Shown: piece by piece, positions 28,452-30,692 of the stretch
Layout of the letters: each line of letters begins with the position of its first letter
Numbering within the stretch: the first letter of the stretch is position 1
Assembly: GCA_038063755.1 (NCBI GenBank)
Contig: JBBTUL010000001.1
Location: 1-61,237 of the forward strand
Direction: 5' to 3'
Origin: Patescibacteria group bacterium
Lineage (GTDB): Bacteria; Patescibacteriota; Minisyncoccia; UBA6257; 2-01-FULL-56-20
DNA: 61,237 nt
Translations under genes and position numbers: made by a program
The notes under the pieces: generated by a model
What the model saw: the letters and a program-made list of their open reading frames with translations, nothing else
Database searches by the model: none
What the model was told of the DNA's origin: nothing

Positions 28452-30692
28452 ATGGAAGCACTCGATACGCGCTACAACCAAAACGAAGAACCTGATATTT
28501 ACGATCTATGGGAAAAATCAGGAATCTTTACTCCGGAAACATCCAAGAAACGGGGAATAACCGATGCGGAAGCTCCGCCTTTTGTCGTGGTGCTACCCCC
28601 TCCAAATGTGACCGGAACCCTTCATATCGGACATGCATTTGAAGACACCGTCCAAGATATTTTCGTTCGCTACCATCGCATGCTCGGAGAGCCAACACTT
28701 TGGATTCCAGGTACCGATCATGCCGCAATAGCCACTCAAGCAAAAGTTGAGAAAATACTCAGCAAAGAAGAAGGGAAATCGAAATACGATCTCGGACGAG
28801 ATGAATTCTTAAAACGCGTAAACGCGTTTGCAAAAGAAAGTCACGACACCATTACGCGGCAAATCCGCCGCCTTGGAGCGTCGCTTGACTGGAGTCGTGA
28901 AGCTTACACGCTCGATGAAAAACGAAATCTTGCGGTCCGAACCGCCTTTAAGCGAATGTACGATCTCGGCCTTATTTATCGAGCTGATCGCATCGTAAAC
29001 TGGGACCCAAAAGGGCAGACAGTAATTTCGGATGACGAAGTGGTCTATGAAGAGCGCCCTGCAAAACTTTACACCTTCCGCTATTCCAAAGACTTCCCTA
29101 TCTCCATCTCAACCACTAGACCAGAGACGAAAGTCGGAGACACCGCGGTTGCGGTTCATCCCGAAGACCAACGATACAAGAAATTTGTTGGAAAAATATA
29201 CGAAGCGAATTTTTGCGGAGCTCAGATCAAGGTGAAGATCGTCGCCGACTCCTCTGTCGAAAAGGATTTCGGCACCGGAGCACTCGGCGTTACTCCCGCG
29301 CACAGCATGATCGACTGGGAAATAGCATCTCGACACGACCTTCCATTGGTGCAGGTGATAGATGAATATGGAAAAATGATGGTGGAAGATGTGCGCTTAA
29401 AAGGAAAGAAGACAATCGAAGCGAGAGAAGTAATCGTGGCATGGCTGAAAAACGAGGGCCTTCTCGAAAAGGAAGAGGACGTCACGCAAAATGTTTCGAC
29501 ATCAGAACGAACGGGAGCCGTAATAGAACCGCTTCCGAAACTTCAGTGGTTCATTGGCGTGAACAAAGAATTTGTCCTTGAGCACTCAAGCATCCACGGC
29601 ATTCCTTCGGGGTCAAAAACAACGCTCAAAGAAATCATGAGGAAGTCAGTCTCTGAAAAACAAATAAAGATTCTCCCAGAGAGATTTGAAAAGGTTTACT
29701 TCCATTGGATAGACAATCTTCGCGACTGGTGTATTTCGCGACAGCTTTGGTTCGGACATCGCATTCCCGTCTGGTACCGTTCGACTGACGCTCACGGCAA
29801 GCCGAACGGTATCCCGAGCGATAGTCGAGGGGTCGAAACTTATGTGAACGTCGAGCCACCGAAGGGCTCGGATTGGGAACAGGACTCCGACACGCTTGAT
29901 ACCTGGTTTTCTTCCGGCATGTGGACTTTTTCGACCCTGGGATGGCCCGAGAAAACAGAAGACCTTAAGCGGTACCACCCAAACGCGTTCATGTGTCCGG
30001 GGTACGAAATTATCTTCATGTGGGTCGCCCGTATGATTTTGATGAGCGGATGCCTTTTGGGGGAGATCCCTTTTCGTACCGTTCTCTTCCACGGCATCGT
30101 CCGCGACTCGCAAGGAAGAAAGTTCAGCAAATCCATCGGAAATGGTATTGACCCTTTGGAGCTCGCGAATACCTATGGTGCCGATGCGCTACGCATGGCG
30201 CTCGTGATCGGTGCTGCGCCGGGAAACGATGTAACATTTAGCGAAGATAGGGTTCGGGGATACAGGAACTTTTCGACAAAGATATGGAACCTCGCCAGAT
30301 TCCTGCGCATGAATTCGCGACCTGAGTTCTCGCACGGCAACCACAAATTCGACGAAGGCGACAGAGCGACGCTTCAGGAGTTCGAAGCCGTTAAGAAGGC
30401 GGTGACCAACCACATTGAGAACTTCGACCTGCACCTCGCCGCAGAAGGCCTATACCACTACGTCTGGCACACGTTCGCCGACAAGGTGGTCGAAGAGGCA
30501 AAGCCGCGCCTCCAGGGAGATGATTCTGAAAAAGCTCACAGAGCCTACCACCTTCTCGATCACATTCTTGTCGATTGCTTAAAGATGCTGCATCCATTCA
30601 TGCCATTTGTAACGGAAGCTGTATATCGAAAATCTCACCCGAATGATCTTTTGACAGAAGAACGCTGGCCATATATTCCCCACGTCGAGTAG
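28452..30692 (+). CDS. valS: Valyl-tRNA synthetase, short (no C-terminal coiled coil), with a 17-aa repeat-derived insert
   Basis: PPPNVTGTLHIGH; DWCISRQLWFGHRIP; DTWFSS; KFSKS. Confidence 0.96.
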   Translation: MEALDTRYNQNEEPDIYDLWEKSGIFTPETSKKRGITDAEAPPFVVVLPPPNVTGTLHIGHAFEDTVQDIFVRYHRMLGEPTLWIPGTDHAAIATQAKVEKILSKEEGKSKYDLGRDEFLKRVNAFAKESHDTITRQIRRLGASLDWSREAYTLDEKRNLAVRTAFKRMYDLGLIYRADRIVNWDPKGQTVISDDEVVYEERPAKLYTFRYSKDFPISISTTRPETKVGDTAVAVHPEDQRYKKFVGKIYEANFCGAQIKVKIVADSSVEKDFGTGALGVTPAHSMIDWEIASRHDLPLVQVIDEYGKMMVEDVRLKGKKTIEAREVIVAWLKNEGLLEKEEDVTQNVSTSERTGAVIEPLPKLQWFIGVNKEFVLEHSSIHGIPSGSKTTLKEIMRKSVSEKQIKILPERFEKVYFHWIDNLRDWCISRQLWFGHRIPVWYRSTDAHGKPNGIPSDSRGVETYVNVEPPKGSDWEQDSDTLDTWFSSGMWTFSTLGWPEKTEDLKRYHPNAFMCPGYEIIFMWVARMILMSGCLLGEIPFRTVLFHGIVRDSQGRKFSKSIGNGIDPLELANTYGADALRMALVIGAAPGNDVTFSEDRVRGYRNFSTKIWNLARFLRMNSRPEFSHGNHKFDEGDRATLQEFEAVKKAVTNHIENFDLHLAAEGLYHYVWHTFADKVVEEAKPRLQGDDSEKAHRAYHLLDHILVDCLKMLHPFMPFVTEAVYRKSHPNDLLTEERWPYIPHVE

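What the first reader, a model, noticed from the sequence alone, without database searches (positions are those of the whole stretch)
29780..29832. Inverted pair of the same repeat family read in frame inside valS
Seen: TTCGACTGACGCTCACGG (reverse complement CCGTGAGCGTCAGTCGAA) is followed by CCCGAGCGATAGTCGAGGGG. These are two oppositely oriented copies of the sodA-type unit that can pair as a hairpin. They encode STDAHGKPNGIPSDSRG (17 aa) between HRIPVWYR and ETYV..., upstream of DTWFSS. Inference: a second essential gene colonised by the element, in BIME-like paired form.
Basis: partly seen in the sequence, partly recalled or inferred. Interest (0 to 1): 0.68.

Follow-up and report, generated by a model that had tools for sequence, protein, structure and literature searches.

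The report
Tiny hairpin repeat pair inside valS
The valyl-tRNA synthetase gene of this ultra-small groundwater bacterium carries, read in frame as a floppy 16-residue surface loop, a 48-base pair of small GC-rich hairpin repeats that belong to a repeat family found in many bacterial phyla and that is conserved as DNA, not as protein.

Summary
They encode STDAHGKPNGIPSDSRG inside valS (28452-30692).

Against its closest, syntenic relative (81% identical ValRS), the window has exactly 48 extra bases (29781-29828, 16 codons). They sit at the tip of a beta-hairpin. In an AlphaFold2 model the insert is the only internal low-confidence segment.

The conservation is in the DNA:
- In 18 Patescibacteria valS genes that carry the insert (the window's among them), synonymous codon identity is 0.95 and 0.84 in its two halves.
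- In the flanks it is 0.35-0.39.
- Frame-shifted and half-length versions also exist.

Carriers are scattered over the ValRS tree, and each carrier genome checked holds one copy.

The first 24-27 bases are identical to a dispersed repeat in a cyanobacterium (21 copies, embedded in short tandem repeats). The same bases also replace an equal-length segment of a Xer-like recombinase gene. The second arm's 20-base core occurs at 86 loci across many phyla, where about 4 are expected. It often appears as inverted doublets, and in other CPR bacteria in frame in enolase, UvrB-like and DnaJ-like genes.

This genome has 17 family members, including the sodA copies. No RAYT-type transposase is linked to them. 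How the repeat spreads is unknown.

The parts
28452..30692 (+). valS (valine--tRNA ligase, 746 aa), the host gene
   Evidence: ORF. Homologs are valine--tRNA ligases. It matches T. thermophilus ValRS 1GAX at E = 4e-41. The synteny TsaD-valS-PrsW-HSP20 is shared with L163.
29781..29828 (+). The 48-base (16-codon) insert, S444-R459. Its boundaries are ambiguous by 3 bases because CGT lies before it and CGA ends it.
   Evidence: Codon alignment of the window with L163 (P0002, 81% identical, basal loop), and of L164 with L165. Both pairs differ by exactly 48 bases at this site.
29778..29831 (+). 54-base block (CGT...GGG) conserved at the nucleotide level among carrier valS genes
   Evidence: Per-codon table. 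Codons 1-18 are nearly invariant, third positions included. Conservation stops at the codon before (TAC/TTC/TAT) and at codon 19.
29778..29801 (+). Unit 1 (arm A), CGTTCGACTGACGCTCACGGCAAG, 24 bases
   Evidence: Identical to a 21-copy dispersed repeat of Coleofasciculus sp. LEGE 07092. Identical in two diverged Xer-like genes. Present alone in half-length carriers.
29813..29832 (+). Core of unit 2 (arm B), CCCGAGCGATAGTCGAGGGG
   Evidence: 86 loci in the species-genome collection where about 4 are expected, across many phyla. Matches the sodA 24-mer at 17 of 20 bases. One of 17 family matches in this genome.
29781..29793 (+). 5' arm of hairpin H2 (TCGACTGACGCTC). It pairs with 29816-29828 (GAGCGATAGTCGA).
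   Evidence: Fold. 96% of cells are paired in 12 carriers, with no covariation because the columns hardly vary.
29776..29810 (+). Alternative hairpin H1. In the window it is ACCGTTCG / CGAACGGT. In most carriers it is a 14-bp stem, GGTACCGTTCGACT / AGTCGAACGGTACC, that includes the host codons TGG TAC.
   Evidence: z = -5.9 for the 41-mer. 91% of cells are paired. The pair at alignment columns 8-42 changes A-U to U-A in L113 and L154, where the host codon is TTC.
29769..29846 (+). Beta-hairpin of ValRS (strands 440-444 and 461-465) whose turn is lengthened by the insert
   Evidence: AlphaFold2 model with mean pLDDT 89.7 and pTM 0.87. The only internal segment below pLDDT 50 is residues 447-460. 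In 1GAX this place holds a CxxC...CxxC knuckle.

Best explanation
**What it is.** The 48 bases at 29781-29828 are a piece of selfish or neutral repeat DNA that has become part of an essential gene. They form an inverted doublet of two roughly 24-base units of a small, GC-rich, hairpin-forming repeat family. That family occurs in many bacterial phyla. Its forms include CC(C/G)TTCGAC-N3/4-GCTCA(G/C)GG and its inverted partner CCCGAGCGA-N-AGTCGAGGGG.

**Shown**
- It is an insertion, a multiple of three bases long and free of stop codons.
- It sits at the tip of a beta-hairpin, at a place where ValRS length varies throughout bacteria.
- It is translated as a 16-residue loop that the model shows as disordered.
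- What is conserved is the nucleotide sequence, not the peptide.
- The same units occur in other genes, in other reading frames, and in other phyla.

**Inferred**
- The units move, or are copied, as hairpin DNA or through a short single-stranded intermediate. The machinery is not a RAYT transposase.
- In the tiny, gene-dense CPR genomes, only copies that land in frame in permissive surface loops survive. That is why they are seen inside essential genes.
- Pristine copies such as this one are young insertions or short-patch replacements at a tolerant site. The many half-length, frame-shifted and diverged loops in other lineages are decayed older copies.
- The protein most likely neither needs the loop nor is harmed by it.

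The confidence given applies to the identity of the stretch (an in-frame repeat doublet, conserved as DNA, forming a tolerated loop). The way it spreads is much less certain.
For: **Insertion**
- Exactly 48 extra bases in two independent sister pairs.
- The basal loop WY-[RK]-G-x-E-x-Y is 24 residues long in 57 distinct loop sequences, the commonest length by far.

**DNA-level conservation**
- Synonymous codon identity is 0.95 in unit 1 and 0.84 in unit 2, against 0.35-0.39 in the flanks. The edges at CGT and GGG are sharp.
- L042 keeps the DNA but reads it in another frame, giving STSLTAG.

**Family membership**
- The unit 2 core is found at 86 loci where about 4 are expected from the size of the collection (my estimate). 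38 of 82 hits have an inverted partner arm directly upstream.
- Some copies are embedded in heptamer repeats or in terminator loops.
- L241 and L219 have unit 1-like partner arms.
- This genome has 17 motif matches where 0-1 are expected, including sodA and tandem 24-base units.

**Unit 1 elsewhere**
- 21 copies in Coleofasciculus and none in the reversed control.
- A variant on a Dolichospermum plasmid.
- 30 identical bases in two Xer-like genes whose flanks differ at synonymous sites.

**In-frame copies in other CPR proteins**
- By their motifs these proteins look like enolase, UvrB, PepA, DnaJ, a GTPase and an AddB-like nuclease.

**Scatter on the tree**
- At least 23 changes are needed for 30 carriers.
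- The window's ValRS is sister, with support 100, to an ortholog without the insert.

**Surface loop**
- pLDDT is below 50 only at residues 447-460, between two strands.
Against: - The exact valS units are single-copy in this genome and in 8 of 8 other carrier genomes. They are absent from 400 evenly sampled Patescibacteria genomes. So no active multiplication is visible in CPR genomes.
- All carriers have the insert at exactly the same junction. Independent hits at one junction would need strong target specificity or short-patch transfer, and neither is shown.
- 95% synonymous identity in a single-copy sequence could also come from selection on an RNA or DNA structure.
- Hairpin H1 includes host codons and shows a compensatory change. 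That fits a functional or locally generated structure.
- In the Xer-like gene the unit replaces an equal-length segment rather than adding bases. Simple insertion does not explain that.
- No mobilising enzyme was identified.
- The protein set behind the tree was ranked on a region that includes the insert, so carriers are over-represented in it.
Confidence: 0.75

Rival explanations
1. One ancient insertion in an ancestor of many Patescibacteria, inherited vertically. It is kept at the nucleotide level in some lineages because the mRNA or DNA hairpin has a function in valS, for example translational pausing for folding, mRNA stability, or binding of a factor. It has been lost or has decayed many times elsewhere.
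For: - One copy per genome, always at the same junction in valS.
- Two stable alternative hairpins are kept in 12 carriers (91% and 96% of cells paired). One compensatory A-U to U-A change involves the host Tyr/Phe codon.
- Small clades consist only of carriers and decayed carriers, for example P0014/P0041/P0054 and P0023/P0084/P0085.
- Many diverged forms, such as RSTQAHG.. and RSTTAHG.., look like old copies.
Against: - It does not explain the identical 24-27 bases in a cyanobacterial dispersed repeat or in Xer-like genes. It also does not explain the 86 multi-phylum loci of unit 2.
- It needs many precise 48- or 24-base deletions that restore the basal loop, including in sisters at 81% identity.
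- The loop is dispensable in most ValRS.
Confidence: 0.3
2. It is an ordinary lineage-specific protein loop conserved for a protein function. The hairpin and the resemblance to repeats are chance.
For: - The peptide RSTDAHG[KR]xNG[TI]PSDSRGV recurs in many ValRS.
- The site is a known variable module; in T. thermophilus ValRS it is a zinc knuckle.
Against: - Codon choice is fixed at four- and six-fold degenerate sites, 0.95 against 0.38 in the flanks.
- The same DNA is read in another frame in L042.
- The same DNA occurs in unrelated genes and in non-coding DNA of other phyla.
- The model gives a disordered loop.
- Distribution on the tree is patchy.
Confidence: 0.03
3. The insert spreads between valS genes of different Patescibacteria by uptake of foreign DNA and short-patch recombination. 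This would be homing-like conversion without a nuclease, not transposition within a genome.
For: - Pristine sequence appears in distant ValRS lineages while sisters lack it.
- The junction is the same everywhere.
- In Xer-like genes an equal-length native segment (R-LKDADGE-P) is replaced by the unit, which looks like a conversion.
- P0044 and P0045 share the odd GKSSE[IV]ETY.GTTAP loop tail but lie in different halves of the ValRS tree.
Against: - Flanking codons show no raised DNA identity right up to the unit's edges. A conversion tract would therefore have to be about as short as the insert.
- No donor or mechanism is shown.
- It does not explain the origin of the unit or its presence in other phyla.
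Confidence: 0.25
4. Assembly or binning artefact: a chimeric read-through or collapsed repeat placed in valS.
For: MAG-derived sequence, and the genome occurs at low depth (about 4.8x word depth in run X1).
Against: - The same insert is present, with lineage-specific variation, in more than 18 independent assemblies from different studies.
- The reading frame is always kept.
- Contig-level support comes from two studies.
Confidence: 0.01

Closest known systems
Small dispersed repeats (SDR1-8) of Nostoc and relatives: 'very small mobile repeated elements' (Elhai et al. 2008, Genome Res 18:1484). Cited in PMC5861425 and PMC3116915. The paper itself is not held here, so details are from my own knowledge of its abstract.
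   Same: - Units of 21-27 bases, here 24.
- A hairpin-forming sequence.
- Copies embedded in tandem heptamer or octamer repeats and nested in other repeats. This is seen here for unit 1 in Coleofasciculus and for doublets in Vicinamibacterales (L212, L231).
- No transposase of their own.
- Variants of unit 1 occur in cyanobacteria, including a Dolichospermum (Nostocales) plasmid.
   Different: - SDRs were reported as essentially confined to heterocyst-forming cyanobacteria, and no SDR-like repeat was found outside the Nostocaceae (PMC5861425).
- Here the units occur in a non-Nostocacean cyanobacterium, in Patescibacteria and in many other phyla.
- In CPR genomes they are read in frame inside essential genes.
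- I could not compare the sequence with the published SDR consensus sequences.
Rickettsia palindromic elements (RPE; Ogata et al. 2000, as summarised in PMC10969869)
   Same: - Palindromic repeat DNA inserted in frame into unrelated housekeeping genes of a reduced genome.
- The insert is translated as an extra peptide at places compatible with the protein fold.
   Different: - RPEs are about 100-150 bp and specific to Rickettsia. Each RPE family encodes its own conserved peptide.
- This insert is 48 bases made of two 24-base units.
- The units occur in several reading frames and in many phyla.
REP / REPIN doublets and BIMEs mobilised by RAYT transposases (Bertels & Rainey 2011, PMC3116915)
   Same: Two inverted copies of a roughly 20-25-base imperfect palindrome form a long hairpin. 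The doublet seems to be the usual form in Acidobacteriota, where 28 of 35 hits are doublets.
   Different: - REPINs are extragenic, number tens to hundreds per genome, are specific to a species or genus, and are tied to a RAYT gene flanked by them.
- This insert is intragenic and single-copy.
- This genome has no Y1 transposase.
- In 8 multi-copy genomes, 11 of 12 Y1_Tnp loci have no unit within 1.5 kb.
- No 5' GTAG is visible in the unit.
Mobile GC clusters of yeast mitochondria, including in-frame copies in var1 and the 'byp' elements that ribosomes hop over (own knowledge)
   Same: Very short, GC-rich palindromic elements that enter protein-coding genes.
   Different: - Byp elements are not translated, and their lengths need not be multiples of three.
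- This insert has no stop codon, and every variant keeps the frame, so ordinary translation is expected.

Membership tests
SDR elements (Elhai 2008) | Unit length of 21-27 nt | tested here: met
   Unit 1 is 24 nt. Half-length carriers have +7 or +8 codons. 24 nt are replaced in Xer-like genes. The inserts in Coleofasciculus are 24-26 nt.
SDR elements (Elhai 2008) | Often embedded in tandem heptamer repeats or nested in other repeats | tested here: met
   Most of the 21 Coleofasciculus copies lie inside CCCCACT / CTCCCCTG-type tandem repeats. L212 and L231 lie inside GAATCCC repeats, and L178 inside GGTCAACC repeats. The window's own copy lies in a gene instead.
SDR elements (Elhai 2008) | Sequence matches one of the eight published SDR consensus sequences | not testable with these tools
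   The paper (PMC2527708) is not held. No held paper contains these strings.
SDR elements (Elhai 2008) | Confined to heterocyst-forming cyanobacteria | tested here: not met
   Found in Coleofasciculus, Patescibacteria, Acidobacteriota, Bacteroidota and others.
REPIN / REP-RAYT | Inverted doublet of REP units that forms a hairpin | tested here: met
   (38 of 82 hits have an inverted partner arm).
REPIN / REP-RAYT | A cognate RAYT (Y1 transposase) gene in the genome, flanked by the repeats | tested here: not met
   No PF01797 match in G000. Multi-copy genomes have Y1_Tnp genes, but 11 of 12 loci show no unit within 1.5 kb. Only the 12 best loci were looked at.
REPIN / REP-RAYT | Extragenic, with many near-identical copies per genome | tested here: not met
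   Intragenic and in frame. The exact units are single-copy in 9 of 9 CPR carrier genomes. The looser family has 17 copies in G000.
Rickettsia palindromic elements | In-frame insertion into housekeeping genes at sites compatible with the fold | tested here: met
   Other CPR genes.
Rickettsia palindromic elements | Size of about 100-150 bp and the RPE family sequences | tested here: not met
   The insert is 48 nt. The RPE size is taken from PMC10969869. No sequence comparison with RPEs was run.
   Only the alternating orientation is seen. The location is intragenic. Linker motifs and protein binding were not testable.
Translational bypass ('hop') elements | Stop codon at take-off and an untranslated gap whose length need not be a multiple of three | tested here: not met
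   No stop codon in frame. All variants keep the frame.

The most novel reading that the evidence does not exclude
The 24-base units are a cross-phylum class of ultra-small mobile DNA, relatives of the cyanobacterial SDRs, and they do not depend on RAYT transposases. They enter or overwrite specific short targets by a template-directed, hairpin-dependent short-patch mechanism. This lets them 'home' to the same codon of valS, and to an equal-length segment of Xer-like genes, in many Patescibacteria lineages independently. If so, they would be a general and so far undescribed source of new surface loops in the essential proteins of CPR bacteria.
Probability: 0.3. Interest if true: 0.85.

Novelty: new variant of a known kind. 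Interest (0 to 1): 0.66.

Why it matters
**Protein evolution in CPR bacteria.** CPR/Patescibacteria proteins are full of unexplained short insertions. This case shows that at least some are repeat DNA read in frame, not adaptive loops. That matters for annotation, for alignment-based phylogeny of aminoacyl-tRNA synthetases, and for structure prediction.

**Range of very small repeats.** The smallest proposed mobile elements, the SDRs, were thought to be confined to one cyanobacterial group. Identical 20-27-base strings now turn up in Cyanobacteria, Patescibacteria, Acidobacteriota, Bacteroidota and others. Either an unknown, widely shared mobilising or copying mechanism exists, or a shared structural constraint does.

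**A tractable test locus.** The valS site offers a fixed junction, sister genomes with and without the insert, and half-length, decayed and frame-shifted forms. This makes the question of how such tiny repeats move directly testable.

Tried and rejected
- **Dispersed copies of the exact arms in this genome.** None found, even at up to 4 mismatches. One weak 15-of-18 match on C13 was taken as chance. Only a looser family motif finds relatives.
- **Unit 1 in 400 evenly sampled Patescibacteria genomes.** None.
- **Unit 2 in the Coleofasciculus genome.** None.
- **Phage or plasmid source.**
  - 2 hits in viral contigs to an 18-mer, not examined further and compatible with chance.
  - One plasmid hit, in an intergenic region of a Dolichospermum plasmid.
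- **Literature.**
  - The SDR paper is not held.
  - No held paper contains the unit strings.
  - No paper on in-frame palindromic elements in CPR turned up.
- **Polymorphism in reads.** Only contig-level data were available. No insert-less variant of this organism was seen.
- **tRNA-Val anticodon-arm mimic for autoregulation.** The H1 loop contains CUCAC, but the predicted loop is a 13-nt loop with a 2-bp inner stem, not a 7-nt anticodon loop. It resembles the genome's own tRNA-Val(CAC) arm only in UCAC. Dropped.
- **Ribosomal bypass.** CGT and CGA flank the insert like take-off and landing codons. Rejected because there is no stop codon and every variant keeps the frame.
- **Intein or intron.** Rejected on size (16 residues) and because the sequence is plainly translated in frame.
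- **RAYT link.** Not found.
- **Covariation as proof of RNA structure.** The columns are too invariant. H2 shows none, and H1 shows only two pairs with changes on both sides.
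Full report
**1. The observation**

They lie in frame in a 746-residue valS gene, 28452-30692.

They encode S444-G460. Their cores, TCGACTgaCGCTC and GAGCGatAGTCGA, are complementary. The region folds at -28.4 kcal/mol, with z = -2.4.

The spaced core GAGCGNNAGTCGA occurs at only these two places in the 868 kb genome. A contig of the source run covers the stretch without any difference. A 97% strain variant from another study also keeps the insert.

**2. It is an insertion**

Most Patescibacteria ValRS have a 24-residue loop between HRIPVWY and DTWFSS, of the form WY-[RK]-G-x-E-x-Y-x-G....

The window's closest relative is P0002 on locus L163. It is 81% identical, has the same TsaD-valS-PrsW-HSP20 synteny, and is sister with support 100. 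It has this basal loop.

Codon alignment shows exactly 48 extra bases in the window, between TAC-CGN and GGN. A second sister pair, L164 and L165, shows the same 48 bases at the same place.

T. thermophilus ValRS (1GAX) has a CxxC...CxxC knuckle at this position. Some relatives carry a histidine-phosphatase domain of about 190 residues there. So this is a site where ValRS tolerates length change.

An AlphaFold2 model has mean pLDDT 89.7 and pTM 0.87. It places the insert at the turn between strands 440-444 and 461-465. Residues 447-460 are the only internal segment with pLDDT below 50.

**3. The conservation is in the DNA**

The peptide RSTDAHG[KR]xNG[TI]PSDSRGV recurs in many ValRS. In 18 distinct carrier genes, the window's among them, the codons themselves are fixed:

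| Region | Synonymous codon identity |
|---|---|
| First eight codons of the insert block | 0.95 |
| Codons 11-18 | 0.84 |
| Upstream flank (20 codons) | 0.39 |
| Downstream flank (20 codons) | 0.375 |

Among the 12 full-length carriers the flank values are 0.39 and 0.35. The conserved block starts sharply at CGT and ends at GGG, 54 bases in all.

L042 keeps the DNA with a one-base loss and reads it in another frame, giving RSTSLTAG. P0115 has the matching peptide, RSTKLTAG.

Other forms also exist:
- Half-length forms carry only the first 24 bases (RSTDAHGKS...).
- A unit 2-only form exists in L150.
- Shortened forms exist (GKSSEV).
- Many loops look like diverged copies.

**4. Distribution in Patescibacteria**

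On a ValRS tree built without the loop (112 sequences), carriers are scattered. At least 23 changes are needed for 30 carriers, and well-supported branches alone force 11-14. The sequence set was ranked on a region that includes the insert, so carriers are enriched. The sister pairs with and without the insert are still robust.

None of about 24 genera of the window's own family has the insert. None of 400 evenly drawn genomes of the phylum has unit 1 within three mismatches. Each of 8 other carrier genomes has exactly one copy, the valS one.

**5. The same DNA elsewhere**

*Unit 1.* The 21-mer TCGACTGACGCTCACGGCAAG also occurs six times in the cyanobacterium Coleofasciculus sp. LEGE 07092.
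- With up to three mismatches the 24-mer has 21 copies there, and none in the reversed control.
- Nearly all copies are embedded in tandem C-rich heptamer or octamer repeats.
- A variant lies in intergenic DNA of a Dolichospermum plasmid.

*Xer-like recombinase.* In metagenomes the unit also lies in frame in a Xer-like recombinase of CPR type.
- Two such genes have different synonymous sites in their flanks but share 30 identical bases.
- There the unit does not add length. It replaces the native segment R-LKDADGE-P, which is equally long.

*Unit 2.* The core CCCGAGCGANAGTCGAGGGG occurs at 86 loci of the species-genome collection. From the collection's size I expect about 4. Of these, 82 copies were tallied by phylum.
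- They include Acidobacteriota (35), Bacteroidota (10), Actinomycetota (7), Verrucomicrobiota (4), several CPR phyla and others.
- 38 of the 82 have an inverted partner arm, CC(C/G)TTCGAC-N-GCTCAGGG, directly upstream.
- Some partner arms are close to unit 1: L219 has CCTTCGACTCACGCTCAGG, and L241 has CCGTTCGGCTCACGCTCACGGC.
- Copies also sit in heptamer repeats and in terminator loops.

*In-frame copies in other CPR genomes.* The exact core lies in frame in proteins whose motifs are those of the following. These identifications are from my reading of the motifs.
- enolase, in the same frame (TPSDSRGV);
- UvrB;
- PepA;
- DnaJ;
- a GTPase;
- an AddB-like nuclease.

**6. The family in this genome**

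A motif that covers these units has 17 matches in G000, where shuffled or reversed controls give 0-1. The matches include the valS arm B, the sodA copy and tandem units with a 24-base period.

Several lie in long open frames. One has IF-2-type motifs, one has AspRS-type motifs, and one is a zinc-ribbon protein.

Arm B aligns with the sodA 24-mer at 17 of 20 bases, with p of about 0.0015.

**7. Structure of the insert**

Two hairpins compete.
- **H2** pairs the two arms. 96% of cells are paired in 12 carriers, with no covariation because the columns barely vary.
- **H1** is a 14-bp stem in most carriers, GGTACCGTTCGACT / AGTCGAACGGTACC. It includes the host codons TGG TAC, and its z-score is -5.9.

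Where the host codon is TTC (L113, L154), the partner base in the insert has changed as well, from A-U to U-A.

This has two possible readings. Either the stem is under selection, or part of the insert is copied from the local flank. I could not tell which.

**8. What it most likely is**

It is an inverted doublet of a pan-bacterial family of very small hairpin repeats. It has been fixed in frame in a permissive loop of an essential gene and is translated as a disordered loop.

The mixture of pristine and decayed copies is the usual signature of mobile or copied DNA:
- the sharp edges of the conserved block;
- the use of different reading frames;
- the presence in unrelated genes and phyla.

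**9. What remains open**

It is unclear how a single-copy sequence stays pristine, at one junction, in scattered lineages. Three readings remain:
- repeated targeted insertion;
- short-patch transfer between valS genes;
- an old insertion under nucleotide-level selection.

RAYT transposases are not implicated.

**10. Comparison with known systems**

The closest described systems are:
- the cyanobacterial SDR elements (same size, same embedding in short tandem repeats, but reported only from Nostocaceae; PMC5861425);
- Rickettsia palindromic elements (in-frame insertion, but three times longer and genus-specific; PMC10969869);
- REPIN doublets (hairpin doublets, but extragenic and tied to a RAYT; PMC3116915).

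I found no description of this family or of in-frame repeat insertion in CPR genes.

Noticed in passing
Same loop site as window 29778-29831, in P0022, P0043 and P0074 (917-919 aa) and locus L017: Several relatives, some in the window's own family, have a histidine-phosphatase (PF00300) domain of about 190 residues inserted at this same ValRS loop. It is flanked by Cys pairs (CxxC ... C..C). This would be a ValRS-phosphatase fusion within the catalytic domain.
   Followed up: no
L158 2190-2230; L169; proteins P0121 and P0140: A CPR Xer-like tyrosine recombinase carries the 24-base unit 1 as an equal-length replacement of the native R-LKDADGE-P segment. Thirty bases are identical in two genes whose flanks differ. 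Other homologs have different repeat-like inserts at the same spot (P0130, P0132, P0135, P0143).
   Followed up: partly
Genome contigs C12:145570, C6:11412, C11:97265, C6:9710-9760 and C2:34763-35010 (outside the window): Further family units lie in frame in long ORFs of this genome. One protein has IF-2-type motifs (..ITFIDTPGH), one has AspRS-type motifs (WVLDFPFFE..), and one is a zinc-ribbon protein with the unit at its N-terminus. There is also a tandem array with a 24-base period.
   Followed up: partly
L244, L179, L180, L232, L195, L198: The exact 20-base unit 2 core lies in frame in enolase-, UvrB-, PepA-, DnaJ-, GTPase- and AddB-like proteins of other CPR bacteria. It is read in at least four different frames and orientations (TPSDSRGV, PERKSRG, SPSTIARG, PLDSRSG, TPRLSLG).
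   Followed up: partly
ValRS loop of L005, P0037, P0055; P0053, P0088, P0048; L003/P0106; L051, L062: Other recurring insert types occupy the same ValRS site: ..SLLTQT.L.., RP.A[DG]QP.AG, PPEADSLQSGGQEPSADK (with hairpins in the DNA), and short tandem repeats such as (AGTTCAA)n. The site looks like a general trap for small repeats.
   Followed up: partly
P0044 (L036) and P0045 (L124): The two ValRS share an unusual shortened insert and loop tail (GKSSE[IV]ETY.GTTAP.GEGW). On the whole-protein tree they fall in different halves. This hints at recombination within valS.
   Followed up: no
L183 1120-1180 and L195: In two CPR contigs the 20-base core sits exactly in the loop of an A-tract/T-tract terminator-like hairpin (aaaaaacac-CORE-gtgttttt).
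   Followed up: no
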